From assembly GCF_057098645.1 (NCBI RefSeq), contig NZ_CM169472.1: a DNA stretch of 64,000 bases. One strand, given 5' to 3'. Below the pieces are notes generated by a model, which ran no database searches, had not been told where the DNA came from, and saw only the letters and a list, made by a program, of their open reading frames with translations. A program made the position numbers and the translations under genes. Of the stretch, positions 3,101 to 26,554 are shown piece after piece. The stretch's first letter is position 1; every line of letters begins with the position of its first letter.

Positions 3101-6100
3101 CTCGACGTGCGTTAGACGTCACGTTGCTGGGATACTCTCCGTATTTGCCGGGTAGCAAAGAAATTGCACCTGAAAAAGCAGTGTTGATTGAAATGCCTGA
3201 GCTTCCTGTACGTCACTGGCGTTTGTCTGGTGGTGGAGAAATCGCCCGAGAAGAACGTCTGGAGTGGCTGGAAAGTAATGCGCTGATTCAACATGCCCGC
3301 GAGGAAGGATTATGGTCTACTCGCAGCGACCGACTGGCCCTGAAAGATAGCTGGTATCGTCTGGAGGAACACTCTGCGCAGAGAACGCCTGAGCAGAACC
3401 AGTTTAATGAAAAACAATTTAAGTCAGGCAAAGTTAATGTGCTGAACTGTTCCACGACCATGGAGATGGGGGTGGATATTGGTGGTATGAGTTTGGTGGC
3501 AATGAACAACGTTCCTCCAGCGCCGGCAAATTATTTGCAACGTGCAGGTCGCGCGGGGCGTCGTGGAGAGAGTGCATCTGCTGCCATTACGTTATGTAAA
3601 AACACGGCGCATGGAATGGAGGTATTCAAAGACCCCCTCTGGGCGTTCAACACTACTGCCAGTGCGCCACGGGTTCGTTTTGGGAGCAGTAGCATTGTTC
3701 AACGACATGTTAATGCCCAGGTTTTAGGTCTGTTTTTACGAGCTGAAGTTCCTGATGCGACAAAACTGAGTTGCAAATGGTTCTTTGAAGGTGATGAGAG
3801 CCAGTGTCTTCGTTTTCTTCATTGGTTAAATCACCAGGCCGATGAGCTGGCGGATAAACTTAAACGCCTTACTCAGGGAACCGTCCTGATGTCATTGACG
3901 GCAACCCAGCTCTTGACCCGCACACAAGCAATGATGCAGCAGGTTGATATCCGCTGGAGAAGCCAACTTGCGATACTGTTGGAAAATATCGAAGCGTTGA
4001 AGGCGGATAACAGCGCGTGGGAAGAAACGCCAGCAGGTAAAGCCATCGCTTATCAGCTTCGTGATTATCGCGGTGCATATCTGTTTTCTAAACTCATTAG
4101 TGAAGCGTTCCTGCCGGGGCATGGTTTCCCGGTTGGCGTAGTCAATTTCAATTATCTGACGGCAGATGAGCTGGAAAAACGTCGCGCAATAAAAGCCACT
4201 CAGGCTGACCCTAATGAAGGGGGAGAAAGCTTTTCTCGTCGTATTGAAAAATTGCCCAGCCGTGATTTGCCTACAGCATTACGCGAGTATGCGCCTGGTG
4301 CAGATGTGGTATTGGGCGGAAAAGTATATCGTTCCTCGGGCATTATGCTTGGCAAGGTGCTTGCCAGCGGGCAGGAGCTGTCAGGCGATCATCATATTCC
4401 GTGGTTCTGGCATTGCCGTAAATGTGGTGCGGGGGCAACCAGTACTACCCATCCTGTCGAATGTAGTCACTGCAAAGCGGATATACAGCAACTTGATGTG
4501 AAGCGTTATTTACAGCCTGTTGGTTTTGCGACAGATATTCGTTATCAGGCACATAATGATGTATCCATGCCTGCACAACTTCCCTGGAAAGATCCACGTG
4601 TTCTTGTACCGTCTTCGGTGTGGGTTTCTTTACCCGATGCTGGGCTAGGACGTTACCGTTTTAGCCATAGTGGGGAATTGTTCCACTTCAGTGAAGGGGA
4701 ATTTGGGCACGGCTACGCAATTTGCCTCTCATGTGGTCGGGCAGAATCTCAAACTCAACCCCAGCGTACCCCTGAAAATCTAAAGAACCCAGAGCGGGAA
4801 AATACGCATTACCTGTTGCGAGGGGGCAGTAACGATCGTCAGGGGAGCAATAAATTGTGCCACGGTCATGTGCATAAAGATCTGTGGTTGGGGTATAGCA
4901 GTCGTACAGATATGGTTGAGCTGCAACTTAATGATGATAATGGCCTGTTGATCCGTGATGAGGTTGCCGCGCGTTCCCTTGCGGTCGCTTTGCGTGAAGG
5001 GTTAGCGCATAAATTGGGTATCGAAAATACTGAGCTGGGCGTGACGACGCAGCAAGCGCGCGATATCAATGGCTATACCGGATATTCCATCTTCATATAC
5101 GACAATAATGCGGGTGGTGCAGGTTATGCAGTGCAATTGATCGACCATTGGGCTGATGTCTTTAATTACGCCAGAAAATTGCTCGATTGCAGTTGCGATA
5201 AATTTTGTCACCACTGCTTGCTCAGCTACGACAGTCAGCATTATGTCAACAGATTAGATCGTCACCATGCATTAACCCTGCTTACCAATGTACGGTTGCA
5301 GCGACTTAACCTCGCGCCAGAATATCAGTACTTCGGCGATGGTAGCCGGGTTGAAACTAACCCTCTGAGTTTACGTATTGCGCAATGCCTGAACAGCGAG
5401 ATTTATGACTCCTGCTCGCTGGTTCTTGCGGGGCCGCAGGAACAGTGGGACTTTGCCCAATGGCCATTATTTAAAGAGTTGCTCCAGTTTGCCTCCTCCG
5501 GTGGGAATGTTGAGTTGCTGGTGGCCACGCCGCTGGAAAACTTAACTGATAGCTCCAGACATCAGCTTTCCGCGTTGGCGGCGATGCCGGGAGGACGCTT
5601 ACAAGTGAAATCCATTGCCACTGCGCAACTCATGCAAGGAAAGGGGCGCTGGCTTGCGCAGGTGACTCGCGAAGGGCAAAGCCAACAGTGGGCCGCAGAC
5701 GACAGCGCTACCGTTGCCCCTGGTGAATTATGGGGACAAAGTGCGTCTTCACCAGTAGTGACACTTAAAGGAACGTCCGGAAAAACCTTCTCGGGTCAGA
5801 CCTTAAGTGCAGAAGATTTACTGCCCGCCTTACCCACCGGGGCGGTGCGCATCAATCTCTGTGAACAACTGGACGGGCCGCTGGAAGGTTTTGGTTCGCG
5901 TTTCTGGTCGTTAGTCACGCAACAGCACGCTGGCTGGAAGCAGGCATTTACCCGCCACAAAGAGATAACGCATGTTGAGTACAGCGATCGTTATCTTAAT
6001 AGCCCATTCACGGCGCGTTTGTTAGGTGAAATCTTAACCGAGCTGGTTGAACAGGGAATGGCGGAACGCGCCAGCCTCACTGTTTGCGTCAAAAAATTGG

Positions 6101-9546: not shown

Positions 9547-12500
9547 ATGGCGCTGGTCGGTATTAATAACGAAAACGAATTTTACTCTAACCACTATTTG
9601 GGTGAGGTTTTCACCAGTGATATCCGCGATGTGCTGGAACCCTGGATAGCCAAGGAAAATGCAGCGCGTGAAGCGGAGCGTGCCGCTCGTGAACAGGGCA
9701 AAGACGTGGAGCCGGGATACCGCGCTCCGTGGAACCAGTTTAACAGTCTGGCGACTGAGTTTTTCCGCAAACTTGCCGAGCACGAAAAACAGCGTCAGAT
9801 CCCGCAGCGTCTGGCCGATCAACGTAATCGCTGGCAGCCATTGTTAAAGGCGCTGGGCTACGAAATTACGCCACAGATCCAAATGCTGGATGACGATACA
9901 CCGCTGCCGGTACTGGCGCGTTACAACAGCACTGACGGTAGCCCGTGGCTGTGGATTGTTGAAGCACACGATCAGGAAGAAGGAACGCTGGATCCGCTGG
10001 CGCTCTCCTTACTGACCGCGCAATTCCCGGCGGATACCGACAAACATAAGCGCGACAGCCTGCGCAAAAAAGCCAACGGTGAATATCGCAGCTGGCAGGA
10101 TCTGCTCTCTACGGCGGTCTTCACCCAAAATGAACCGCCGCGTTTTGTGCTGCTGCTCGGTAACCGTCAGCTCTTGTTGTTGGACCGTACTAAGTGGGCG
10201 CAAAACCGTCTGCTACGTTTTGATTTTGAAGAGATTTTAAGCCGTCGTGAAACGGATACGCTGAAAGCGACTGCGGTGTTGTTACATAAAGATTCTCTGC
10301 TGCCGGGCAGTGGGGCACCTTATCTTGACTCGCTGGATGACAATTCGCACAAACATGCGTTTGGTGTTTCGGAAGATCTGAAATATGCCCTGCGCGAAAG
10401 CATTGAGTTGCTGGGCAACGAAGCGATGCATTATCTGATCGACCGTGGCCTGGCAAACTATACCGGTAACCGTGCGGTGGACCCGGATGAACTGAGCCGC
10501 GAATGTCTGCGTTACATGTACCGCCTGCTGTTCCTGTTCTACATTGAAGCGCGCCCGGAGCTGGGTTATGCGCCAATGACTGCCAAAACTTATCTACAGG
10601 GCTACAGCCTGGAAACGTTGCGCGATCTGGAGATGATCCCGCTGACCAGCGAAGAAGATCGCAACGGGCGCTACTTCCACGACAGCCTGAATATGCTGTT
10701 TAAACTGGTGCGCGAAGGCTACAACGGCGGCGTGAAAATGCAGAGTGACCTGGAGAGCGGCGACCGGATCACCATCCATAGTCATCAGTTCAGCGTCCCG
10801 CGTCTGGAAAGTCATCTGTTTGATGCCAACAACACGCGCATTCTTAACCGCGTGGTATTCCGTAACGAAACCCTGCAACAGATTATCCAGGCGATGTCGT
10901 TAAGCCGCCCGGCCAAAGGGCGCTTTAACCGCCGCGGACGTATTTCTTATCGCCAGTTGGGTATCAACCAGTTGGGTGCGGTGTATGAGGCGCTGCTCTC
11001 CTATCGTGGATTCTTCGCCAGCGAAGACCTCTACGAGGTGAAGAAAGCCGGGGAAGAGTTTAACGAGCTGGAGACAGGTTACTTCGTCAGTAAGGATGAG
11101 ATTGGCAAATACCACGAAGACGAGAAGGTCTACGAGAAAGACGGCAGTCTGCGCATTCACCGCAAAGGCAGCTTTATCTACCGTATGGCCGGGCGCGACC
11201 GTGAGAAATCTGCCTCTTATTACACCCCGGAAGTGCTGACCCGCTCACTGGTTAAATATGCCCTGAAAGAACTGTTTAAGGAGCAGATTGATCCCATTAG
11301 CGATCCGCACGCCAAAGCTGATGCCATCTTAAACCTCACCGTGTGCGAACCGGCGATGGGCAGCGCGGCGTTCCTTAACGAAGCCATCAACCAGCTGGCG
11401 GAAGCGTATCTGTTCCACAAGCAGCAGGCGGAAGGTCGCCGTATTCCGCAGGATCGTTACACCCAGGAGTTACAGCGGGTGAAAATGTACATTGCCGACA
11501 ACAACGTTTTCGGCGTGGACTTAAACCCGGTGGCGGTGGAACTGGCGGAAGTGTCACTGTGGTTGAACGCCATCAGTGGCGATGCCTTTGTACCGTGGTT
11601 TGGTTACCAGCTGCACTGCGGTAACTCACTGGTGGGCGCGCGCCGTCAGGTGTTCAACAAGAGTGAACTGACCTACAAAAAAGCCAAAGATCCGAGCTGG
11701 CTTAACAGCGAGCCGGTCGAACTGGCGATGAACACGCCGCGTGAAGAGACGCAGATTTTCCACTTCCTGCTGCCCGACGGCGGTATGGCTAACTACAGCG
11801 ATAAAACTGTTAAGCAGCGTTATCCGGATGACTTCAAAGCCCTGGACAGCTGGCGCAAAGAGTTTATTAAAAGCTTTGCCGGGCATGAGATTGCTGATGT
11901 GCAGCGTATCAGCGAAAAGGTGGAAGCTCTGTGGAACACTTATCGCCAACAACTTAAAGCAGAACGTCTGAAAACCGCCGACAGCTACCCGGTGTGGCCG
12001 GCAGAAAACAGCGAGCAGACGCGTTCTTCGCTGAGCAGTAAAGATGAAACCTTTAGCGGTCGTCTTGAAGATAACAGCGCCTACCAGAAGCTGCGTTGGG
12101 TAATGGACTACTGGTGCGCGCTGTGGTTCTGGCCGATCGACAAAGCCGATGAGCTACCGGATCGCGGCACCTGGTTGTTTGAGATTGAAACCCTGCTCGA
12201 CGGGATTGTAATCACGGAAAAAGTCACTGAAGTTGCGGAGCACACCACCGGCGATCTGTTTGCCGAAGAAGGCCTGCTGCGAGAAGAGTCTTCGCTGTTT
12301 TCCGTTGCTGGTCGTCTGAAAACCGAGGTGTTGTTCCGTCATTTGCCGCGTCTGGCGATTGTCGATGCCCTGAGAAAGCAGCACCGTTTCTTCCACTGGG
12401 ATCTGGAGTTCTGCGACCTGTTTGCCGAGCGCGGCGGTTTTGACCTGATGCTCGGAAACCCGCCGTGGCTGAAAGTGGAATGGCAGGAAGCGGGCGTGCT

Positions 12501-14457
12501 GGGTGATTACGAGCCGGAATTTGTGCTGCGTAAGCTGAGCGCCTCGAAGCTGGCAACGTTGCGTGTTGATACCTTTAACCAGATCCCGGCACTGGAAGCG
12601 GCCTGGCGCAGCGAGTATGAAGGCTGTGAAGGGATGCAAAACTTCCTCAATGCGCAGCAGAACTACCCGGTACTAGCAGGACAAAAAGCGAATTTGTATA
12701 AATGTTTTCTACCTCTGGGGTGGCGCTTAGGGGCGCAGAAAGGTGTCGTAGGGTTCCTGCATCCGGAAGGAATTTATGAAGACCCGAAAGGGGGAAAACT
12801 GCGTGGGGCGGTCTATCCAAGGTTAAGAGCTCATTTTCAGTTTCAAAATCAGCATATGCTTTTCCCTATCGGTGACAGGGTTAAGTTTAGTATTAATATC
12901 TACACCGCGTTTGTAAGTGATCATATTGGCTTCATTAGTATTGCAAACTTATTCTCGGCAAAAACGATTGAACTGTGTTTGTCGCATGATGGAACTGGAG
13001 AAGTGGGTGGTATTAAAGATGACGAAACCGACTCATGGAACGAATCAGGACACCAAAGCCGCATATTGAAAGTATCGTTAGAGCGGCTTTCCTTGTTTGC
13101 TAATTTGTATGATGAGCTAGGTATACCTGCGATTGAGGCCAGATTACCTGCTCTTCATGCGGATCACTTGGTGTCTGTGCTTGAGAAATTTGCTAAGCAG
13201 CCAACTAGATTGAGTGACTTAGAAAAAGACTATTATTCAACCCAACATTGGAACGAAGTTAATGCTCAGGATGATGGGATAATCAGACGCGAAACCCAAT
13301 TCCCGGAAGACGCATCCCAATGGATTTTGTCTGGTCCGCACTTCTATGTTGGAACACCGCTTTATAAAACGCCGAGAGAAATTTGCACAGAGAAAGGACA
13401 TTATGACTGCCTGGACTTGCTAACTCTGCCCGACGACTATCTGCCGCGCACTAACTATATTCCAGCATGTGATGCACAGGAGTATGCAAAGCGCACCCCA
13501 CGGGTTTCGTGGAAAGAACAGGATGAAGACGAGCCGAGGAAGGTGACGGATTATTATCGTCATATAAATCGAAGAGCCATTGGTTGTTCTTCGGAGCGAA
13601 CTGCTATAGGTGCAATTATACCCAAAGATGTCGCTCATATAGATGGGGGATTCTCATTAACTTTCAAAGACCCTAAACAACTGGTGATTTTTAATACCAG
13701 CTTCAATTCCTTACCTTTTGACTTTGTAATTAAAACAACGGGTAAAAGCGATTGTCGGGCGGAATTAGTAAAAATTTTACCAATGCTTTCAGATATAGGG
13801 ACAAGGCTATTTGCTCGGGGCTTAGTTAATAATGCAATAACAGCGCATTACTCCGATCTCTGGCAATCCTGCTACACCCCAGACTTCAACACCCAGCGTT
13901 GGAGCCGCGATCTCCCGCTGCTGCCCCAGGATTTCTTCGCCAATCTGACCCCAGAGTGGCAGCGTAACTGCGCCTTACGCTCCGACTACAGCCGCCGTCA
14001 GGCGCTGGTGGAAATCGACGTACTGGTGGCGCAGGCGCTGGGGTTAACCCTCGAAGAGCTGCTTACCATTTACCGTGTACAGTTCCCGGTTATGCGCCAG
14101 TACGAAGCGGACACCTGGTACGATCAAAACGGTCGTATTATCTTTACCCCAAGCAAAGGGCTGGTGGGCGTTGGCTTGCCGCGTACCGCGCGTAAAGCTG
14201 ACCTGAAAAACGGCTTTGTCTTTAACGTCGACAGCCCGGACTGGACCGGCGGTGACTGCACCGATCAAGCCATCGGCTGGGATGATGTCAAACATCTTAA
14301 AACTGGTACCGTCAGCGTCACCTTTGATGACTATACCCGCAGCGACGAAGGCGAGCGCCGTACCGTCACCTGGCAGGCACCGTTTATCAAGCCGGATCGC
14401 GAAGACGACTACAAAGTGGCCTGGGCGTTCTTTGCACAAGATAAGGAGAGCGCCTGA
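9547..14457 (+). CDS. Large gamma-class N6-adenine DNA methyltransferase (PglX / DrmMI / type IIG-like), 1636 aa
   Basis: GGAGGG RBS at 9534-9539; start 2 nt after gene 2 stop. SAM motif I-like CEPAMGSAAFL, GVDLNPVAVELAEVSLWL, catalytic motif IV NPPW at 12457-12468. Confidence 0.85.
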   Translation: MALVGINNENEFYSNHYLGEVFTSDIRDVLEPWIAKENAAREAERAAREQGKDVEPGYRAPWNQFNSLATEFFRKLAEHEKQRQIPQRLADQRNRWQPLLKALGYEITPQIQMLDDDTPLPVLARYNSTDGSPWLWIVEAHDQEEGTLDPLALSLLTAQFPADTDKHKRDSLRKKANGEYRSWQDLLSTAVFTQNEPPRFVLLLGNRQLLLLDRTKWAQNRLLRFDFEEILSRRETDTLKATAVLLHKDSLLPGSGAPYLDSLDDNSHKHAFGVSEDLKYALRESIELLGNEAMHYLIDRGLANYTGNRAVDPDELSRECLRYMYRLLFLFYIEARPELGYAPMTAKTYLQGYSLETLRDLEMIPLTSEEDRNGRYFHDSLNMLFKLVREGYNGGVKMQSDLESGDRITIHSHQFSVPRLESHLFDANNTRILNRVVFRNETLQQIIQAMSLSRPAKGRFNRRGRISYRQLGINQLGAVYEALLSYRGFFASEDLYEVKKAGEEFNELETGYFVSKDEIGKYHEDEKVYEKDGSLRIHRKGSFIYRMAGRDREKSASYYTPEVLTRSLVKYALKELFKEQIDPISDPHAKADAILNLTVCEPAMGSAAFLNEAINQLAEAYLFHKQQAEGRRIPQDRYTQELQRVKMYIADNNVFGVDLNPVAVELAEVSLWLNAISGDAFVPWFGYQLHCGNSLVGARRQVFNKSELTYKKAKDPSWLNSEPVELAMNTPREETQIFHFLLPDGGMANYSDKTVKQRYPDDFKALDSWRKEFIKSFAGHEIADVQRISEKVEALWNTYRQQLKAERLKTADSYPVWPAENSEQTRSSLSSKDETFSGRLEDNSAYQKLRWVMDYWCALWFWPIDKADELPDRGTWLFEIETLLDGIVITEKVTEVAEHTTGDLFAEEGLLREESSLFSVAGRLKTEVLFRHLPRLAIVDALRKQHRFFHWDLEFCDLFAERGGFDLMLGNPPWLKVEWQEAGVLGDYEPEFVLRKLSASKLATLRVDTFNQIPALEAAWRSEYEGCEGMQNFLNAQQNYPVLAGQKANLYKCFLPLGWRLGAQKGVVGFLHPEGIYEDPKGGKLRGAVYPRLRAHFQFQNQHMLFPIGDRVKFSINIYTAFVSDHIGFISIANLFSAKTIELCLSHDGTGEVGGIKDDETDSWNESGHQSRILKVSLERLSLFANLYDELGIPAIEARLPALHADHLVSVLEKFAKQPTRLSDLEKDYYSTQHWNEVNAQDDGIIRRETQFPEDASQWILSGPHFYVGTPLYKTPREICTEKGHYDCLDLLTLPDDYLPRTNYIPACDAQEYAKRTPRVSWKEQDEDEPRKVTDYYRHINRRAIGCSSERTAIGAIIPKDVAHIDGGFSLTFKDPKQLVIFNTSFNSLPFDFVIKTTGKSDCRAELVKILPMLSDIGTRLFARGLVNNAITAHYSDLWQSCYTPDFNTQRWSRDLPLLPQDFFANLTPEWQRNCALRSDYSRRQALVEIDVLVAQALGLTLEELLTIYRVQFPVMRQYEADTWYDQNGRIIFTPSKGLVGVGLPRTARKADLKNGFVFNVDSPDWTGGDCTDQAIGWDDVKHLKTGTVSVTFDDYTRSDEGERRTVTWQAPFIKPDREDDYKVAWAFFAQDKESA

Positions 14458-20400: not shown

Positions 20401-20798
20401 TAAACCTGTTACAGTTCCTGCCGGATATGACCTTTACCAGCCGTAAAGCCGTGCATTTACCGCAGGAAAGCGTTGACACTAAAGTTTCGGCAACGCCAGA
20501 GGCAGTACCAGAGACTGATGAGAGTTGGGCTGAGATTATTGAGTTTGGCTTATTAAGCGCTGAAGAGATCGCGTTGCTTCAGTCTCATTCTCTCTCTGCG
20601 CCGACTCTCGGCTACGAATTGCAAAATGATGAAGGTGAAATTATTGCGGAAGCCGATCTCGCCTGGCCATCACAAAAATGGGCATTGATTATTGATAATC
20701 AAGAATTTATTCCATTATTCACAACCAGGGGTTGGCACGTTGCATTCGGGCCAATTGACGAAAATACATTGCAACATCTGTCCGGAGGTGACAAATGA
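14457..20798 (+). CDS. Second giant SF2 DEAH helicase-DUF1998-like fusion, paralogous to gene 1, with a C-terminal DUF559/Vsr-like PD-(D/E)xK nuclease-like motif, 2113 aa
   Basis: Start overlaps gene 3 stop (TGATG); AAGGAGAG RBS. Walker A TGTGSGKTE, motif II VVDELHTF, TSAT, QRIGRAGRKDG. Cys clusters CSHC...CPKCG, CLGCG, CSCNND...CYRC. C-terminal RPDYVLYP...VVIFLDGFAFH...KRQAIRDSGNFWVWTVTW. Confidence 0.85.
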   Translation: MLPSVVSRQVADSVAAFLRAAFPLNSPLFNGENNDNVSMLEQFLAQPETLLKGPYLSAQLPFRKSDLPLNFFPNLTLPFPPHAHQARAFQRLGSDAPQPTLVATGTGSGKTECFMFPLLNHCAGASHAGVKAIIIYPMNALATDQASRFAKTIASDPQLHGKVTVGLFVGDSEIEPSKKMSAEKVITCKHTLRESPPDILLTNYKMLDYLLMRPGDQPLWRYNQPGSLRYLVVDELHTFDGAQGSDLACLVRRLKHHIGVDNQRFACVGTSATVGDELGQLLDYAKTIFDQPFTDDAVIREDRYTAAEYLQDYAIAYSQYPGPEAASALDPQSYSTPVAYLNGQIPLWFPDSDLQLPDDLESDDGREKRIALGSLLRRHSVMHVLLHDLQGGILSERECLENLQVMLAESADHARRVLQSILALIAQARLEVPETEHDRQKRLQAKKARPVLPFVQLRSQLWLREMRRLVASVAKTPRLVFADDVAVEDREHYLPVIHCRDCHATGWASLRHGQSVQLETDLDGIYRQFFEKGRSIVLAFPDNNEKAVSGAHQKLCPTCLKLNRQSSVQCGHCGHTELLQVLIPDMLKERKDELEFANECPYCNSKQGISILGSRAASLSAVMIHQLYGSQFNEHKKLITFSDSVQDAAHRASFFTARTWPLMIRGQIASVLGEKETLPLDAFAARVCQQTRERSPDDAHFAANFIAPNMQWLNDYQTLKNEGKLAENSDLPELVSLRLDWEVYSEFTLRARIGRTLEATGYAVAGVDKDRFNPAITALHQQLCEELGDEMSGVSVEQVAHLALGVIWYQRQAGAVMHPAFESYRRDGTTFMMTQKERTSRYMPSIGPKTRKPAYASFEKINGFHRLIGAKSNPSWYQHWINRTLSNGNNLFISSVAETVLRRLFTALKIAGVVKDFDTKGREAWGLVPSALVVSRDVVQLNCSCCREVVRAPADQGWQWRNAPCLSLRCEGRYLEVDNMATWRWENMDIARVQGAEHTGLLSREDREATEKSFYRGNQPWNINLLSATPTLEMGIDVGDLSTVLLCSVPPAQANYLQRIGRAGRKDGNALNITVAEGNPHDQFFFEEPLEMMQGQVQAPGVFLNATAILERQLAAFCMDNWVKTGVPESAICKNVKQMLDELEFGRKSGFPYNLLRYIEQHHAEIAAQFTAIFPDLAAETRQQLLSYLQGAPGQRSLVQRIEEALKLLVEDRKSLRSRIDKLKRSIDKLENAPRDQNFDSDMRELTSERQALMALVNQINNKQTLNFLTDEGLLPNYAFPEAGITLRSVLWRRKEGGEAREYQNTTFEYERPASTALAELAPLNNFYAGGHKVEIEQIDLKVSEPENWRICSHCNYSENIDQTGDQHKYCPKCGTPGWADAGQKTTLLKLRQVYARASARDSQISDESDSREPAFFQRQLLVSFEKEDVSAAYAIEEGEVPFGFEFLSKVTLRDINFGKMADDANELMIAGEAKKRTGFKVCLGCGMVQRPRDHEPRHDLSCKYRTEPEKAKFEDYLYLYRQLESEALRILLPVSSYSNDRVVEASLGAAIQLGLKHYFKGNVDHLKGVVYREPENEGESWRQYLVIYDTVPGGTGSLKELMRTPDNLLKLLELAYQAIVECSCNNDTHKDGCYRCVYAYRDRGRMKYVSRDQARLLLAKILQARDSIRVIDSIKNISLEAMMGSELEKRFISCLQENKNLIVSRSYAHQGAGWIINTRSEPMMSWHLKAQVDLGAKEAVGIPCRPDYVLYPLMQSDAIKPVVIFLDGFAFHKNSVAEDVQKRQAIRDSGNFWVWTVTWADLKEPGLKHVQDVLGLGHNPDMKQPKFYNLFHDTNFAALEASFRERNSFALLLDYLADPGGRTQLWQRMAAAHAWVWLDVKKSQDAGTKQKYAYEMQENAPAWRLAELLPDEPFVFGGLLDSCNSSQQFIELASVLPQQAIKPTTSVAQMRSWLRLHICFDDRYTQDDGYEAGLNGFWRLVNLLQFLPDMTFTSRKAVHLPQESVDTKVSATPEAVPETDESWAEIIEFGLLSAEEIALLQSHSLSAPTLGYELQNDEGEIIAEADLAWPSQKWALIIDNQEFIPLFTTRGWHVAFGPIDENTLQHLSGGDK

Positions 20799-22909
20799 CG
20801 GTGCAAACGCCCAAGGTGGCACTTTCTGATGGTTTTCTGGGCGCATTCGCGCGGATCCCAAAGGCACAGCAAAAAAAGGTGCAGGAATTCATCTCCAAAT
20901 TCCGTCAGGACCCGACCAGTAATGGACTTAACTATGAAAAGATCCACGATGCGCGCAGTAAAAATGTCCATTCGGTGCGAATCGATCAAACTTATCGCGG
21001 CATTGTTCTGAAACCTGAACAGGGTGCCCTGTATATGCTGATGTGGGTGGATAAACACGACGAAGCATACGACTGGGCGCGGCGGCATGATTGTTCGATT
21101 CACCCGGTTACCGGCGCGATTCAGGTCATTGATATTAGCTATATCAAACCGGCACCGGAAGCGGTGGTTGATAAACCGAAACTCTTCGCGGCTTACAGCG
21201 CGGAACAGATTCTGGCCCTGGGCGTGCCGCCTGTCTTTATTGATCAGGTGATGGCGCTTACCGATGAAGCCGGGCTTAATCAACTTGAAAGCATAATGCC
21301 AGCAGAAGCCTGGGAACCTCTGCACTGGCTGGCAGAAGGGCTGGATTACCAGGAAGTGCTGGAAGAGTTTAACGATCATCATGATGAGCCTGTTGATACC
21401 AACGACTTTATGGAGGCGATTGAACGAAGTAAACGTCGCTTCCATGTCGTTGAAAATGAACAGGAGCTGTTGCAGATGCTTAATGCGCCTTTAGAAAAAT
21501 GGCGTGTATTTCTGCATCCGAGCCAGCGAAAACTGGTGGAGTCGCCCGCTAATGGTCCGGTACGAGTACTGGGCGGTGCAGGTACAGGGAAAACGGTTGT
21601 TGCGATGCACCGTGCGCGGTGGTTATCTCAGCGTCTGGCAGATAAACCCGGTAAGAAGGTACTTTTCACGACCTTTACGCGTAACCTGGCGGCAGATATT
21701 CGCGCTAATCTCCAGCGGTTGTGTACGCGAGAAGAGATGGCGCGTATTGACGTCGTTAACATTGATGCCTGGATGAGCGACCAACTAAAACGCCACGGTT
21801 ATGATTTCCGCGTGGTATACGACAGCGATGAAGGGCGACGCAAATGCTGGAACTATGCCTTGCAGCAGGCACCTGCCGAACTGGGGCTACCTGACAATTT
21901 CTATGCTGAAGAGTGGCAACGCGTTGTCCAGCCAAATGCGGTTTACACCCGGGAGGAATACCTCAAAGTCAGCCGGGTTGGACGTGGTACAGCGTTATCC
22001 CGTATTCAACGGGCGAAAATCTGGCCAGTCTTTGAAGAATTCAGAGCACAAATGGCGCGTGCCAAACTGCGCGAAATGGGCGATGCCATGCATGAGGCTA
22101 TTGTTCTGTTTAAAGAAAAACAGGTTCAACTACCTTATAGCAGTATTGTGGTCGATGAAGCTCAAGATATCGGTGCCCCGGCATTTACTCTTATTCGCAG
22201 CCTGGTTCCCGAGTCGCCCAACGATCTGTTTATTGTCGGGGATGGGCATCAGCGTATTTATCGCAATAAGGTCGTTCTTGGTCAGTGTGGTATTAACGTC
22301 CGTGGTCGTCGCAGTAAAAAATTGAAGATTAACTATCGGACCACAGAAGAGACGCGTCAATTTGCTGTTGGGCTGTTAACTGGTGTGAAGGTTGATAACC
22401 TCGATGGCGAAGCGGATACCAGTAATGATTATTTGTCATTACTGCACGGGGAAAAGCCCATGATTACGCATGCGGCAGATTTCAAAGAAGAGGCTGCAAC
22501 GCTCGTCAAGCAAATTCAGGCATTGCTGGCGAATCAGGTTCGTTCTCAGGATATCTGCATTACTGCGCGTACTAAACATGCTTGTGACCGCTACGCATCA
22601 GCACTGAATGACGCCGGAATTGAGACATTTAATTTAGGCAATGATAGCGGTGACAGCGATGCACGCCCTGGCGTGCGGGTTGCAACGATGCACCGTATTA
22701 AAGGGCTTGAGTTCCAGTATGTGTTCCTGGTGGGGATTAACGAAGGCGTTGTGCCGGAAATAAAAGCATTAGCATCCGATGATCCCGTTGAACAGCGTGA
22801 TGCATTATTTAATGAGCGCGCGTTACTGCATGTGGCTGCAACCCGTGCCGTAAAAGGGCTGTTTGTTTCATCATCTGGTGTCCCTAGTCCGCTATTAGTG
22901 GCTGACTGA
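20795..22909 (+). CDS. SF1 UvrD/PcrA-like helicase with N-terminal ~230-aa domain of unknown function, 704 aa
   Basis: ATGA start/stop overlap with gene 4; GGAGGTGA RBS. Walker A GGAGTGKT, motif II VVDEAQDIG, VGDGHQRIY, NYRTT, HRIKGLEFQYVFLVG, AATRAVKGL. Confidence 0.85.
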   Translation: MTVQTPKVALSDGFLGAFARIPKAQQKKVQEFISKFRQDPTSNGLNYEKIHDARSKNVHSVRIDQTYRGIVLKPEQGALYMLMWVDKHDEAYDWARRHDCSIHPVTGAIQVIDISYIKPAPEAVVDKPKLFAAYSAEQILALGVPPVFIDQVMALTDEAGLNQLESIMPAEAWEPLHWLAEGLDYQEVLEEFNDHHDEPVDTNDFMEAIERSKRRFHVVENEQELLQMLNAPLEKWRVFLHPSQRKLVESPANGPVRVLGGAGTGKTVVAMHRARWLSQRLADKPGKKVLFTTFTRNLAADIRANLQRLCTREEMARIDVVNIDAWMSDQLKRHGYDFRVVYDSDEGRRKCWNYALQQAPAELGLPDNFYAEEWQRVVQPNAVYTREEYLKVSRVGRGTALSRIQRAKIWPVFEEFRAQMARAKLREMGDAMHEAIVLFKEKQVQLPYSSIVVDEAQDIGAPAFTLIRSLVPESPNDLFIVGDGHQRIYRNKVVLGQCGINVRGRRSKKLKINYRTTEETRQFAVGLLTGVKVDNLDGEADTSNDYLSLLHGEKPMITHAADFKEEAATLVKQIQALLANQVRSQDICITARTKHACDRYASALNDAGIETFNLGNDSGDSDARPGVRVATMHRIKGLEFQYVFLVGINEGVVPEIKALASDDPVEQRDALFNERALLHVAATRAVKGLFVSSSGVPSPLLVAD

Positions 22910-23673
22910 TAATATGTCCAAAACAGACCAGGAGCCGAAACGCTCCTGGTCTATATAACCGTTCTGGCAACTGGCGATATTTATATTGCTTAGCTCCCAA
23001 CAGCCAGACAATATCAACTTAGAAATTATATTCGCTTATGCGGTTTGCATATTGCACAGTACAACCTGTTTTCTCTATATCTAACGTAACGTCAGGATGT
23101 GGATGATTTTTGGATGGGGTGACACACTGGACAAATATAGCTGGCACGAAAAGGCTGGCATTTCCAGCTGACCAATAGTCTCTGGAACCATGATGATGAT
23201 AAAATAAATATCTTAAGTTTTAAACGTATGATGCCAGGATTACCAGAATTATAAACGAATATATTAGTTCTTTTCTATTTGTTCAGGAGGGGTATAAAAA
23301 TTGCAATTGTTAATAGTATCGTCAGGACGATAAAAAGATAATCATGACAAAGGAAATTGAACTAAAATGATTGACATTTTACAGGTGGTTTGTCAGTGAT
23401 TTCTTGTTATTCATAATTTATTTTCCGTAAAAAATAGTAAGGTGATCACCTGAATAAAGGTAATCTCATATTTTGATGAGTATAGTGATTTTTTATTTCT
23501 CTGGTGAGGAATGAAGGAAATATCAATGGTAAGGAACGTCAGAGAATCAGGGAAAATTAAGGTCCCTCAGAAACACAATGCCGTTCACTTAAGCGGGGCG
23601 GCACTGTGTTTCACAGGATAACGGGTTTTTGATATCTTAACCGCCCTCGCCCTTGATGGTCGGGGGCGTTTTG

Positions 23674-24349
23674 TTATGAACACCACTTCCAGAGCCCCCG
23701 CAGATGCTCCAGTCGTTTCGGGATAGTCCCCGGTGACGCCGTGTTTCCCAGCACTATCATTTCTGTCACGATAAACTGGAACGCGAACTTAAAGCTGATC
23801 TCTGACGCCGCTTTTGTTGCCTCACGCCGTATCGCTCCGCTGGTAGGCGCGGTCATGGCATTCAGTAGAATGTGATTCCCAGATTCATTAACGCCACCAG
23901 ACGCATGACGGGGTAGGCGCTCTGCCGCTCAGTGGATGTGTTGGCAGAGCCATAATATTCACGCAGCTCGGGTTCATCAGGTGTCCTGAACTGTGCGCCA
24001 TCAATGGCAAAAAGTTGCAGGCCGTGCCAGTCATCCTGCAGGTAACGTTCCGCGCCCCATGTCTGTGCGGTCTGGCGGAAGAGCCATTCCACCGGGGCGG
24101 CCCCCACGCGCTGACGCGCCTGGGTGACAGCGCTGCGGGCGCCAGCAGGTTCATCCCCGCTTCGCCATCCACGCTCAGGTTAAGACGACGAACGGTCGCA
24201 TGAGCAGAAAGCGTCAGGAAGTGCTGTATCCACTCGGTGGGAAGGTGCTCTGCAAACAGTTGCGTAGAGGGTGGTGGCATAAGCGGATGGTCACTGAAAG
24301 TGGTATAAGAAAATGGCCCCTTGTTGTGGAAGTCGTTATAGTGCCGCAC
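23674..24349 (-). pseudogene. Degenerate transposase-like remnant (possibly IS4-family), broken across frames
   Basis: Three overlapping short minus-strand ORFs in different frames; one reads LFAIDGAQFRTPDEPELREYYG, reminiscent of IS4-family transposase N-terminal region; no intact ORF or terminal repeats found. Confidence 0.3.
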
Positions 24350-24402
24350 GCCGGAGGAGTTAAAAGCGCTGATGGATGCGAATAAATCAAATTAATGAAC
24401 GC

Positions 24403-25383
24403 TCACTTTTCGCGCCAAAACTGCAAAATTGCTTCTACAAACCTGTCAGAAATAATCCCCCGACGGGCTGCCGCGCTGAAATGACTGCTTCGCAGTGCCG
24501 TCGTCCAGTTCTCCGGTGACCGGTACGCTGAACCGTAATATCCCGTGCTTAAATCGTCCGGATCTTCATCAGGCGCGTTCGTTAGCCCTCTTGCACCTTG
24601 TTGCTGGAAGTCGACGAAAATAATATTAGCTAAAACATTATTTTGATAATTGCCATAAATAGCTTCATACGCATGAGGGAAATTTTCTTTCCAGTACCAG
24701 GTGGTATCGCCGCAAAACCACGGCGCGTCAGTAATATTATTAAGCTGAGAATGGTATTGTTTTAGATCCCTACGAAAGGCTTCAACCATATGATTAAAGT
24801 GTTGAGGATGTGACGCGTAGTCACTGGTCATTAAGTCAAATTCGCCTTGCATCCAGCATACGCCGAGGAATTTGTTCTGCGGATTTTTTGTCAGTGCGGC
24901 TCGCGTTCTGCTGACTAAATCCTGGTATAGCGGAGTATCCGTTCCCCAACGACAAGCATCATGGCTGGCTCCGTGCCGTTCTGAATATGTCCCTTCGCTG
25001 CCTGCGGTAAAAGCCGATCCGCCACGGCAACATGGAACGATGAGAACCCCTGCGTTAACAGGAATAAAGGGCAGTAATTTCCGTGCAATATGCAGTGCCT
25101 GGCCAACGGTGCCGTACTGTGTTTGATGATTCGTTGCCAGAGGATGGTGATAACCCTGCATATCCTGAACATCGTGTGGGCAGTGAGTCATTGGAATAAT
25201 GTCGTTAAAGTGACATGACGGGCCTCCGGGATGCGTATGCGCAAATCTCGCTAATTGTTTAATTCTGGGATGAGGCGCATCTTCCCTGTCCGGTAATGGC
25301 AGTCCTTCGCCATACGCCATGGCATTAGACTGACCAGCAACGGTAAGAACATAGTAATAATCAGGCGATATTATTGCGTTCAT
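24403..25383 (-). CDS. nanS: N-acetyl-9-O-acetylneuraminate esterase NanS (YjhS)
   Basis: Protein MNAIISPDYYYVLTVAGQSNAMAYGEGLP... matches my recollection of E. coli NanS; start taken at internal Met to give 326 aa; operon position after nanM. Confidence 0.85.
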   Translation of the reverse strand: MNAIISPDYYYVLTVAGQSNAMAYGEGLPLPDREDAPHPRIKQLARFAHTHPGGPSCHFNDIIPMTHCPHDVQDMQGYHHPLATNHQTQYGTVGQALHIARKLLPFIPVNAGVLIVPCCRGGSAFTAGSEGTYSERHGASHDACRWGTDTPLYQDLVSRTRAALTKNPQNKFLGVCWMQGEFDLMTSDYASHPQHFNHMVEAFRRDLKQYHSQLNNITDAPWFCGDTTWYWKENFPHAYEAIYGNYQNNVLANIIFVDFQQQGARGLTNAPDEDPDDLSTGYYGSAYRSPENWTTALRSSHFSAAARRGIISDRFVEAILQFWREK

Positions 25384-25447
25384 ATAAATTTCGCGTAATT
25401 GAAATGACAAATTGATAGCAGGGCCCCTTTACTGGGGCCCTGAAGCG

Positions 25448-26554
25448 TTAGTTTTGTACTGTGACTTTATTATCCTTCACAGAGATCAAAACTGAATCCG
25501 TCACCGCTTTGCCGCCTGCAGTTTCACCGCCAATAATCAATAGACTATTATTCCAGGGCAATGATACTCCGTAAGCCCGACCTTGCGATAATTCACCCGA
25601 TTTATCCCATTTCCCGTTATGCCAAAGATGAATATCAGTGCTATATGATTTTTTCAGGCCTTCATGCGCATAGTTCTTACCGTTTTGGTAATTTTCTCGT
25701 GAACCTTTGAATCCGGCCCCTCCGGCAAATATAAGAGAATCATTGCTTATCCCCGCAAAACCGCCAGCGACGCCATCTGGTGATGAGACGGGAGCAAGCT
25801 TATTCCATTTTAAATTATTACCGGTGAAATCAAGTTCAAATACGGCATCCGTTCGCAATCCTGGTTTGGCTTCGCCATTAATAAGCCAGGTTTTATCACC
25901 TTTATTCACAACCGCCGCACCAGCCGTCCCGTACCAGGGAGATTCGCCAGCGTAACTCCATTGCTGTGTAGAGGGATCAAAAGACAACAGAAACTTATTA
26001 AAGAAATAATCTTCTGCTTTTTTGTCAAAATAGTGTGCATTGATTTTATCTATAGCGGTTGAATCTTTTCCAGTTTCGTTGAGATCTTCAAAATAGCCAT
26101 TGAAGATATTCTGGTTAACACCGCCAGTAACATAAGCCTTGCCGTTGTGTACAAAAGTCACATGGCCCGCCATGCCCATCGGCGCGTGCGACATCAATTT
26201 AACCCAGCTATTGGTTTTGGGGTTGTATTTGTGTACGTCATTAAATACCTGAGTCAAGCCCTCGCTGTTTTTGCCAATGCCGCCAAACACATACAGATTG
26301 CCATCAATAAATGCAGAGGTTGCTTGATCTCTTGGTCCGCCAGGGAATGCAGCTAACGCTGTCCATTTTTTATCTTTGGCCTGTGTATCCAGCTTGTACC
26401 ATGCCGTACCTGCGCTACCTAAACCAATGTAGACAGTGTCGTTATCAATTGCTCCGGTACCACTTTTAAATGGCACAGGAGTTTCCGGTAATACAGACGC
26501 GTTTGCGGCAAATGAAGCCATCATGATAGCAAGCGCCGTTATTGTTTTATTCAT
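25448..26554 (-). CDS. nanM: N-acetylneuraminate mutarotase NanM (YjhT), Kelch-repeat periplasmic protein
   Basis: Signal peptide MNKTITALAIMMASFAANA, 368 aa from this start; ctcctg (GGAG on minus strand) RBS upstream. Confidence 0.85.
   Translation of the reverse strand: MNKTITALAIMMASFAANASVLPETPVPFKSGTGAIDNDTVYIGLGSAGTAWYKLDTQAKDKKWTALAAFPGGPRDQATSAFIDGNLYVFGGIGKNSEGLTQVFNDVHKYNPKTNSWVKLMSHAPMGMAGHVTFVHNGKAYVTGGVNQNIFNGYFEDLNETGKDSTAIDKINAHYFDKKAEDYFFNKFLLSFDPSTQQWSYAGESPWYGTAGAAVVNKGDKTWLINGEAKPGLRTDAVFELDFTGNNLKWNKLAPVSSPDGVAGGFAGISNDSLIFAGGAGFKGSRENYQNGKNYAHEGLKKSYSTDIHLWHNGKWDKSGELSQGRAYGVSLPWNNSLLIIGGETAGGKAVTDSVLISVKDNKVTVQN

What the first reader, a model, noticed from the sequence alone, without database searches (positions are those of the whole stretch)
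22910..24402. Island-chromosome junction: AT-rich ORF-free spacer, orphan terminator-like hairpin and transposase debris
After gene 5 there are ~700 bp of AT-rich DNA without ORFs of 60 aa or more, then frame-broken transposase-like fragments on the minus strand abutting nanS. A plus-strand terminator-like hairpin (cgccc...gggcg + ttttgtt at 23648-23675) has no annotated gene upstream of it, so an unannotated small RNA or small ORF within 23300-23640 is possible. The arrangement looks like the scar of an integration or deletion event that defines the right edge of the island.
Basis: partly seen in the sequence, partly recalled or inferred. Interest (0 to 1): 0.45.

Follow-up and report, generated by a model that had tools for sequence, protein, structure and literature searches.

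The report
Decayed right end of O-island 172
This stretch is the worn-out right edge of a known E. coli O157 phage-defence island: a deletion scar, a dead insertion sequence whose own hairpin looks like an "orphan terminator", and a stub of an older gene, so it is ordinary genome decay and not a hidden gene.

Summary
All the described features are real and sit at the stated coordinates. The window is E. coli (99.9% identical to O145 RM9872). The region lies between armD, the last gene of the ARMADA II defence system on O-island 172 / SpLE6, and nanS.

It is a mosaic of four relics:
1. The armD terminator hairpin, 22925-22952.
2. AT-rich DNA, 22953-23575. These are the two flanks of a 216-aa uracil-DNA-glycosylase-fold gene that is intact in 93 other E. 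coli genomes. Here a 661-bp deletion between imperfect 11-bp direct repeats removed it (junction 23408-23411).
3. A 773-bp dead copy of a 1430-bp IS4-subgroup element (ISCro3-like, 93% identical to K-12 insZ), 23576-24348. One terminal repeat survives. The catalytic core, the start codon and the other end are gone.
4. The last 15 codons of an HNH endonuclease gene, 24348-24395.

The "orphan" hairpin lies inside the insertion sequence, antisense to transposase codons FITKRPRPSRARAV. It is present in all 11 related copies examined.

The spacer and the IS relic diverge 3-4 times faster than the flanking genes. The candidate small ORF is not conserved, and Rfam finds nothing. The Sakai reference genome already annotates the island boundary and the IS fragment. 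Interest is low.

The parts
22925..22952 (.). Perfect 11-bp stem-loop 16 nt after the armD stop codon. It is the terminator of armD, and possibly also of the convergent lost gene, because GUUUUGG follows the stem on the minus strand.
   Evidence: Fold -21.4 kcal/mol, z = -9.7, 0 of 200 shuffles as good. Identical in strain E1.
22953..23407 (.). Left part of the AT-rich spacer. It is the 3' flank of the lost UDG-fold gene and has no annotated or conserved feature.
   Evidence: Collinear with L002 6044-6496 of strain E1. 95.2% identical to E1, against 98.5% for armD. Found only in island-bearing genomes; PGAP annotates nothing there.
23408..23414 (-). Deletion junction. The TATT microhomology (23408-23411) is followed by CAT (23412-23414). 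Together, TATTCAT is the reverse complement of ATGAATA, the first 7 nt of the lost 216-aa gene. 661 bp are missing here.
   Evidence: Alignment with E1 shows one clean 661-bp gap flanked by TATTAATGATT and TATTCATGATT. The gene is intact in 93 genomes, and the deletion form is present in several hundred.
23415..23575 (.). Right part of the spacer: the former 5' flank of the lost gene, up to the IS end. It contains the 12-bp palindrome AGGTGATCACCT at 23440-23451.
   Evidence: 93.4% identical to E1.
23390..23417 (+). Promoter-like match TTGTCA-N16-CATAAT that straddles the deletion junction. This is a consensus match only.
   Evidence: 10 of 12 positions. The -35 comes from the left flank and the -10 from the right flank of the deletion.
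23511..23621 (+). 36-aa ORF, the candidate small ORF. Rejected: it is a chimera of spacer and IS end.
   Evidence: It crosses the IS boundary at 23576. In E1 it has 6 of 25 codons replaced and is then frameshifted. No Pfam hit.
23576..23593 (+). The only surviving 18-bp terminal inverted repeat of the IS, CAATGCCGTTCACTTAAG.
   Evidence: The single match in the 64-kb window. The same repeat bounds both ends of the intact 1430-bp element. It fits the IS4-subgroup end signature -AATR--------WTW (PMC2266710).
23576..24348 (-). 773-bp dead remnant of a 1430-bp IS4-subgroup insertion sequence (ISCro3-like; paralogue of K-12 insZ / ISZ'). It retains codons 10-44, 74-189 and 357-445 in broken frames.
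   Evidence: tblastn map onto intact transposase P0014. Deletions of 488, 87, 21 and 19 bp, a 41-bp terminal truncation and several 1-2 bp indels add up exactly to 773 bp. Sakai annotates part of it as 'ISCro3 Family: IS4 partial'.
23642..23675 (+). The terminator-like hairpin (stem 23642-23668, T-tract 23669-23675). It is internal to the IS, 66-100 nt from its end, and antisense to transposase codons FITKRPRPSRARAV.
   Evidence: Identical in the intact IS. 98.3% of cells paired across 11 copies, with one doubly compensated pair. The 3' arm and T-tract are deleted in E1.
24348..24395 (+). The last 15 codons and stop codon (TPEELKALMDANKSN*) of an HNH endonuclease gene, fused to the truncated IS.
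   Evidence: Identical to the 3' end of the HNH pseudogene next to nanS in island-free strains.
24403..25383 (-). nanS (sialate O-acetylesterase), the first core gene. K-12 homology starts at 24400.
   Evidence: Pfam SASA; annotations; alignment.

Best explanation
The interval is the non-functional, decayed right end of O-island 172 / SpLE6, the variable region downstream of leuX. [quoted passage not shown] The interval is built from four relics.

1. armD ends with its own strong hairpin.

2. The AT-rich 'spacer' is the pair of flanks left behind when a convergent 216-aa UDG-fold gene was removed. The deletion was 661 bp, between two imperfect 11-bp direct repeats (TATTAATGATT / TATTCATGATT). 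This is the signature of slipped-strand or illegitimate recombination. Only ATGAATA of the gene remains.

3. Next comes a dead IS4-subgroup insertion sequence that has lost its DDE core, its start codon and its nanS-proximal inverted repeat. The 'orphan terminator' is simply part of this element. The Arg/Pro-rich C-terminal codons of the transposase read as a GC-rich palindrome followed by T's on the opposite strand.

4. The IS is fused to the last 15 codons of an older HNH endonuclease gene that sits next to nanS in other strains.

Shown here: the homologies, the breakpoints, the distribution among genomes and the divergence rates.

Inferred here: the order of events. IS decay and the fusion to the HNH stub came first, because both are shared with the E1 haplotype. 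The 661-bp deletion came later and is specific to the O157/O145-type haplotype. Also inferred: that nothing here is under selection today.
For: - Identity and context of the island.
- Deletion of the UDG-fold gene: clean 661-bp gap with microhomology; the gene; intact in 93 genomes, deletion form in several hundred; UDG fold.
- IS relic. The deletions sum exactly to the difference between 1430 and 773 bp.
- The hairpin belongs to the IS.
- HNH stub and core boundary.
- Lack of constraint. The spacer is 93-95% and the IS relic 94% identical to E1, against 98-99% for armC, armD and nanS.
- No known RNA family.
- The same spacer is repeatedly hit by IS1 and IS2 in other strains, and the gene is frameshifted in another.
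Against: No expression data could be consulted, so a transcript from the AT-rich DNA cannot be excluded. Promoter-like matches are enriched (11 found against 2.6 expected), and one good match was assembled by the deletion itself. Within the deletion haplotype the sequence is 99% or more identical across hundreds of genomes. That is uninformative about constraint: it neither supports nor refutes function. The order of events is inferred from only two haplotypes.
Confidence: 0.9

Rival explanations
1. An unannotated small RNA or small protein gene. A plus-strand transcript would start in the AT-rich spacer, for example at the TTGTCA-N16-CATAAT match at 23390-23417. It would end at the hairpin and T-tract at 23675, giving an RNA of about 250 nt that could encode the 31-36 aa ORF at 23511/23526-23621.
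For: A promoter-like site and a terminator-like site sit in the right order and on the right strand. The hairpin is stable. AGGA lies 7 nt before the internal ATG at 23526 (sequence).
Against: The unit would be a three-part chimera of left flank, right flank and IS end, assembled only by the lineage-specific deletion. In the sister haplotype E1 the terminator's 3' arm and T-tract are deleted and the ORF is frameshifted, with 6 of 25 codons replaced. Divergence is 3-4 times that of the flanking genes. There is no Rfam match above chance, no Pfam hit, and no mention in the EHEC sRNA literature searched.
Confidence: 0.05
2. The hairpin is kept here as a working insulator. It would stop plus-strand read-through from armABCD, or from spurious promoters in the AT-rich DNA, before that transcription runs antisense into the convergent nanS-nanM-nanC operon.
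For: The orientation is right: the terminator is on the plus strand and nanS on the minus strand. The structure is a plausible intrinsic terminator.
Against: armD already has a much stronger hairpin of its own (z = -9.7). The E1 haplotype, present in 93 genomes, has lost the 3' arm and T-tract by a 12-bp deletion. The window copy carries one of only two broken pairs among the 11 copies, as expected under relaxed selection. The hairpin's presence is fully explained by descent from the IS.
Confidence: 0.06
3. The junction is an attachment site (attR) left by integrase-mediated insertion of the island at leuX, and the AT-rich DNA is the island's native end.
For: OI-172 is adjacent to leuX and encodes integrases (PMC3681947).
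Against: No copy of the leuX 3' end occurs anywhere in the window, even allowing 3 mismatches. There are no direct repeats in 22700-24700. The actual breakpoints lie inside an IS and inside an HNH gene. Three different junction classes exist next to nanS.
Confidence: 0.02

Closest known systems
SpLE6 (Sakai) / O-island 172 (EDL933) right boundary, and the K-12 counterpart KpLE2 next to nanS
   Same: Same locus and same boundary. Sakai annotates SpLE6 as ending 3 bp before nanS, equivalent to window 24400, and marks an 'ISCro3 Family: IS4 partial' repeat at window 23577-23815. The genes upstream are druE and armABCD, as published.
   Different: The reference annotation does not describe the 661-bp deletion of the UDG-fold gene, the full 773-bp extent of the IS relic, the HNH stub or the origin of the hairpin. 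In Sakai, ECs_5266 is annotated as a hypothetical protein, but it is a fragment of the transposase.
insZ / ISZ' pseudogene between tdk and adhE in E. coli K-12
   Same: 93% nucleotide identity and the same IS species. Both are dead copies with internal deletions, and both carry the same hairpin and T-tract near the same end.
   Different: The locus is different. K-12 insZ keeps both inverted repeats and what appears to be its target duplication (CCCAGAAGGG, read from the alignment), and its internal deletions are different. The window copy has lost one end and the whole DDE core.
IS4 subgroup of the IS4 family (IS4, ISCro3, ISPsy33)
   Same: The intact relative is 1430 bp long. It has 18-bp inverted repeats that fit -AATR--------WTW, an 11-bp target duplication, and a single 445-aa transposase with the Nterm_IS4 and DDE_Tnp_1 domains.
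   Different: The window copy cannot transpose. IS4 proper (K-12 insG) has a different sequence at the position of the hairpin.
Brig1 / Brig2 / Brig3 UDG-superfamily antiviral DNA glycosylases
   Same: The gene lost from the spacer encodes a confident UDG-fold protein. It lies in AT-rich DNA at the end of a defence island, which is the setting described for Brig-type glycosylases.
   Different: No sequence or structural comparison with the Brig proteins could be made. There was no PADLOC hit. Homologues in other taxa are not next to defence genes. The gene is absent from the window itself.

Membership tests
IS4 family, IS4 subgroup (remnant) | Transposase homologous to IS4-family DDE transposases | tested here: met
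   NCBIfam transpos_IS4_1, E = 6.5e-11 on the 81-aa fragment. Pfam Nterm_IS4 weak. 81-89% identity to intact transposase P0014 in the best-preserved segments.
IS4 family, IS4 subgroup (remnant) | Terminal inverted repeats with the signature -AATR--------WTW | tested here: inconclusive
   One end is present and fits the signature (CAATGCCGTTCACTTAAG, 23576-23593). The other end is deleted: the last 41 bp are missing.
IS4 family, IS4 subgroup (remnant) | Intact DDE / YREK catalytic region | tested here: not met
   Codons 190-356 are removed by a 488-bp deletion, and the frame is broken several times. This is a dead relic, not a functional member.
IS4 family, IS4 subgroup (remnant) | 10-13 bp target-site duplication | not testable with these tools
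   One end is missing in the window. An intact relative shows an 11-bp duplication, CAGTCTAGCTG.
Intrinsic (Rho-independent) terminator of a gene | GC-rich stem-loop followed by a U-tract | tested here: met
Intrinsic (Rho-independent) terminator of a gene | A transcription unit ending at it, conserved together with it | tested here: not met
   There is no conserved ORF or RNA upstream. The 3' arm and T-tract are deleted in haplotype E1. The element derives from the antisense strand of transposase codons.
Bacterial small RNA gene | Match to a described family, or sequence/structure conservation beyond the neutral rate | tested here: not met
   The best Rfam hit over the interval is Spot_42 at 17.5 bits against a gathering score of 80, E = 5.4. 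The spacer is 93-95% identical between haplotypes, against 98-99% for the flanking genes.
Bacterial small RNA gene | Detected transcript with defined ends | not testable with these tools
   No expression data are available. The literature searches found nothing for this locus.
Integrase-made island junction (attR) | Direct repeat of the 3' end of the target tRNA gene (leuX) | tested here: not met
   0 matches with up to 3 mismatches. No direct repeats in 22700-24700.
Uracil-DNA glycosylase superfamily (the gene lost from the spacer) | UDG alpha/beta fold | tested here: met
   Tested on the E1 protein, not on the window. AlphaFold pLDDT 89.5. Foldseek E = 6e-7, TM 0.63-0.69 to family-4 UDG 4zbx. 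Pfam UDG scores 18.1 bits, below the 24.3 cut-off.
Brig-type antiviral DNA glycosylase (the gene lost from the spacer) | Excision of modified phage bases; protection against phage | not tested
   Only the setting resembles that of Brig-type enzymes. No Brig sequence was available to compare, and there was no PADLOC hit.

The most novel reading that the evidence does not exclude
The hairpin and T-tract may be a selected feature of ISCro3/ISPsy33-like IS4-subgroup elements, not a by-product of Arg/Pro codons. It would be an inward-facing intrinsic terminator 66-100 nt inside the transposase-distal end that stops host transcription from running antisense through the transposase gene. Dead copies such as this one and K-12 insZ would then seed ready-made 'orphan' terminators in the chromosome. 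Here such a terminator could cap a transcript of about 250 nt from a promoter assembled by the 661-bp deletion, which would be an example of de novo RNA birth from junk. What the evidence shows is only that the stem is kept in 11 of 11 copies down to 49% protein identity, with one doubly compensated pair, and that only the two dead copies have a broken pair.
Probability: 0.12. Interest if true: 0.35.

Novelty: already known. Interest (0 to 1): 0.12.

Why it matters
It matters little. The result removes a false lead, because there is no hidden gene behind the "orphan terminator". [quoted passage not shown]

Two by-products may be worth a note. First, O157:H7-type strains have lost a UDG-fold gene that other carriers of the island still have. 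That gene is a candidate for the growing class of antiviral DNA glycosylases. Second, ECs_5266 of Sakai is a transposase fragment, not a gene.

Tried and rejected
- Rfam at a permissive threshold over 22000-25500 gave only chance-level hits.
- A search for a leuX 3'-end repeat, which would indicate an att site, found none.
- A search for a second IS inverted repeat found none.
- A repeat search in 22700-24700 found no direct repeats and only short palindromes.
- A distant blastn of the spacer against all complete E. coli genomes found no paralogues and no annotated feature. The spacer is always at this locus and only in genomes with this island.
- I tested whether the lost UDG-fold gene travels with helicase systems elsewhere. 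Its few distant homologues (13 hits) sit in unrelated contexts that look like Firmicutes (my reading of the neighbouring genes), so it is not an obligate ARMADA component.
- PADLOC and NCBIfam gave no hit for the UDG-fold protein. A PDB sequence search gave only a marginal hit to a family-5 UDG.
- I tested whether the known EHEC sRNA Esr41 maps here. It does not: it lies in OI-43.
- Literature searches on Z5898-Z5903, ECs5264-5267, SpLE6, insZ and OI-172 with sRNA found nothing on a transcript at this junction.
- IS4 proper (K-12 insG) was compared at the hairpin position and its sequence differs, so the hairpin is a feature of the ISCro3/ISPsy33-like clade only.

Full report
**What the window is.** The interval 22910-24402 is 99.9% identical to E. 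coli O145 RM9872 and 99.6% identical to other EHEC-type genomes. It lies between a UvrD-like helicase gene (20795-22909) and nanS-nanM-nanC-fim. The upstream genes score as DruE3, a DrmD-like helicase, a type IIG/DrmMI-like methyltransferase, a DruE/DrmA-like helicase and a GajB-like UvrD helicase. This is the published druE-armABCD arrangement of O-island 172 of EDL933, carrying Druantia III and ARMADA II (bioRxiv 10.1101/2025.09.22.677730; PMC3681947). In the Sakai reference genome the same region is the right end of 'phage-like element SpLE6'. Sakai coordinate = window coordinate + 5,367,246.

**Check of the observation.**
- GC falls to 0.29-0.39 between 22950 and 23550, against about 0.5 in armD and 0.54-0.61 in the following 700 bp.
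- No ORF of 60 aa or more lies between 22910 and 23673.
- The scan finds one plus-strand terminator-like site, at 23648-23668 followed by TTTTGTT. Folded, the stem is 23642-23668 (-20.3 kcal/mol for 51 nt, z = -3.1).
- The count of such sites in the region is at chance level (2 found against 1.9 expected), so the hairpin needs other evidence to count as non-random.
- The minus-strand ORFs between 23674 and 24349 are fragments of an IS4-family transposase.

**The AT-rich spacer is a deletion scar.**
- Strain E1 (NZ_CP115821) carries the same locus at 93% identity but is 644 bp longer. It has an annotated 216-aa gene on the minus strand between armD and the transposase debris.
- The pairwise alignment shows a single clean 661-bp gap in the window. 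In E1 the gap is flanked by TATTAATGATT on the left and TATTCATGATT on the right. The window keeps one hybrid copy (TATTCATAATT), so the junction lies within TATT at 23408-23411.
- The deletion removed everything from 17 bp downstream of the stop codon up to the third codon. What is left is ATGAATA (reverse complement at 23408-14), which now opens an 11-codon ORF.
- The gene is intact in 93 of 5426 complete E. coli genomes, including SMS-3-5. PGAP calls it 'uracil-DNA glycosylase family protein' in some of them. The deletion form is found in several hundred genomes (O157:H7, O145 and others).
- In further strains the gene is cut by IS1, displaced by IS2 and IS1, or frameshifted.
- The protein matches Pfam UDG below threshold. 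Its AlphaFold model is confident (pLDDT 89.5) and matches family-4, family-5 and UdgX uracil-DNA glycosylases (Foldseek E = 6e-7, TM 0.6-0.7).
- It belongs to a rare family with 13 hits in 5.8 billion proteins. Its distant homologues are not linked to helicases.
- Thus 22953-23407 is the former 3' flank and 23415-23575 the former 5' flank of a lost, convergently oriented gene.

**The transposase debris is a dead IS4-subgroup element.**
- Megablast showed that 23553-24299 is 93% identical to a site present in about 3800 genomes. That site is the K-12 pseudogene between tdk and adhE, known as insZ / ISZ'.
- A reconstructed protein finds intact 445-aa transposases (P0014 of E. coli, 82% identity; ISCro3 at 66%; ISPsy33 at 49%).
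- An intact copy (locus L011) is 1430 bp long, with 18-bp inverted repeats CAATGCCG(A/T)TCA(G/C)TTAAG and an 11-bp target duplication. This fits the IS4 subgroup as defined in PMC2266710.
- Against this copy the window element runs from its transposase-distal inverted repeat (23576-23593, the only such repeat in the window) to 24348.
- It lacks 488 bp (codons 190-356, the DDE core), 87 bp, 21 bp, 19 bp (including the start codon), three single bases and the terminal 41 bp with the other inverted repeat. It has a 2-bp insertion.
- These changes account exactly for 773 bp instead of 1430 bp.
- E1 shares all of these lesions, so they predate the split of the two haplotypes.
- Sakai annotates 23577-23815 as 'ISCro3 Family: IS4 partial', and annotates the 81-aa fragment as hypothetical protein ECs_5266.

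**The 'orphan' hairpin belongs to the IS.**
- It lies 66-100 nt inside the surviving end, on the strand opposite to the transposase. It is the reverse complement of the codons for FITKRPRPSRARAV.
- The same sequence is present in the intact element and in K-12 insZ.
- I aligned the last 160 bp of eleven copies whose transposases are as little as 49% identical. The 11-bp stem is paired in 98.3% of cells. One pair changes on both sides (C-G to A-U and G-U) and six vary on one side only while staying paired. The slid controls give 33-54% pairing.
- The only two broken pairs are in the two dead copies (the window and K-12).
- So the hairpin is inherited, not local.
- Whether the IS family selects for it, for example to stop inward antisense transcription, is open. 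The alternative is that it follows from the self-complementary Arg (CGN/AGG) and Pro (CCN) codons of a conserved RPRPxRPR motif.
- In IS4 proper the sequence at this position is different.
- In E1 a 12-bp deletion has removed the 3' arm and the T-tract, which argues against a role at this locus.

**The junction with the core.**
- Three junction classes exist next to nanS: the window type (444 genomes), a type that shares sequence from 24348 onward, and the K-12 type that shares sequence from 24400 onward.
- In the second type, 24348-24395 is the 3' end of an HNH endonuclease pseudogene (…CPNCHAMLHRRKPPFTPEELKALMDANKSN*).
- The window keeps only TPEELKALMDANKSN*, joined directly to the truncated IS.
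- The right edge of the island was therefore made by a deletion running from inside the IS into an older HNH gene.
- There is no leuX-derived repeat, so it is not an attachment site.

**Is anything functional hidden here?**
- Window versus E1 identity is 98.5% (armD), 98.7% (armC) and 97.9% (HNH stub plus nanS). It is 95.2% and 93.4% for the two spacer halves and 94.4% for the IS relic. The relics diverge 3-4 times faster, as expected for unconstrained DNA.
- The only ORF with a reasonable start (23511-23621) spans the IS boundary. In E1 it has 6 of 25 codons replaced and is then frameshifted.
- Rfam gives nothing above chance.
- Promoter-like matches are enriched (11 found against 2.6 expected), which is usual for AT-rich horizontally acquired DNA.
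- One match, TTGTCA-N16-CATAAT at 23390-23417, was assembled by the deletion itself. A spurious transcript ending at the IS hairpin is therefore conceivable, but nothing indicates function.
- Literature searches found no sRNA reported at this locus. Esr41 maps to OI-43.

**Verdict.** The reading as 'junction scar with transposase debris' is supported and made precise. The 'hidden sRNA or small ORF' reading is not supported. The island boundary and the IS fragment are already in the Sakai reference annotation. The deletion of the UDG-fold gene, the HNH stub and the origin of the hairpin are small additions. Interest is low (0.12).

Noticed in passing
window 24395-24484 (+): A 29-aa ORF (MNAHFSRQNCKIASTNLSEIIPRRAAALK) lies antisense to the 3' end of nanS. 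PGAP annotates it as a hypothetical protein in RM9872, and the corresponding ORF in K-12 as the small protein YthB. Its ATG overlaps the TAA of the HNH stub, so its start and N-terminus lie in variable DNA and differ from the K-12 version.
   Followed up: partly
L002 6514-7164 (strain E1); absent from the window at 23408-23411: The gene lost from the spacer encodes a confident UDG-fold protein in AT-rich DNA at the end of a defence island. It has been inactivated independently by deletion, by frameshift and by IS1 insertions in different E. coli lineages. It is a candidate Brig-like antiviral DNA glycosylase, and O157:H7-type strains lack it.
   Followed up: partly
window 23642-23675; L011, L015-L021, L003, L004 (IS right ends): The last 110 bp or so of ISCro3/ISPsy33-like IS4-subgroup elements are far more conserved at the nucleotide level than the transposases are overall. 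They contain a hairpin and T-tract on the antisense strand that is kept in 11 of 11 copies, with one doubly compensated pair.
   Followed up: partly
window 23560-23575; L003 about 1500-1516; L011 flanks of 1418-2847: Independent insertions of this IS have similar sequences just outside the same end (CCCTCAGAAACA, CCCCAGAAGGG, CCCCAGTCTAGCTG), and several others end in GCG. This suggests a target-site preference like that known for IS4 (the IS4 preference is from memory, not checked here).
   Followed up: no
window 23440-23451: A perfect 12-bp palindrome, AGGTGATCACCT, lies 26 bp upstream of the start codon of the lost gene. It is a possible operator of the former gene.
   Followed up: no
window 23862-24107 (-): Sakai ECs_5266 ('hypothetical protein', 81 aa) is a fragment of the dead IS4-family transposase (codons of about 98-178) and should be annotated as a pseudogene fragment.
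   Followed up: yes
window 9547-14457 (+): armB (DrmMI / type IIG-like methyltransferase) is an intact 1636-aa ORF in the window. In the otherwise nearly identical RM9872 genome it is annotated as a frameshifted, split pseudogene. The published survey also names armB as the most variable gene of the island.
   Followed up: no
L007 about 5335-6032; L008 3665-5830: In other carriers of the island, IS1 and IS2 have inserted into the same AT-rich spacer. In those strains the DNA beyond the insertions is different (a sugar-utilisation cluster; a tRNA-Phe integrase island). The spacer is therefore a recurrent rearrangement point.
   Followed up: partly
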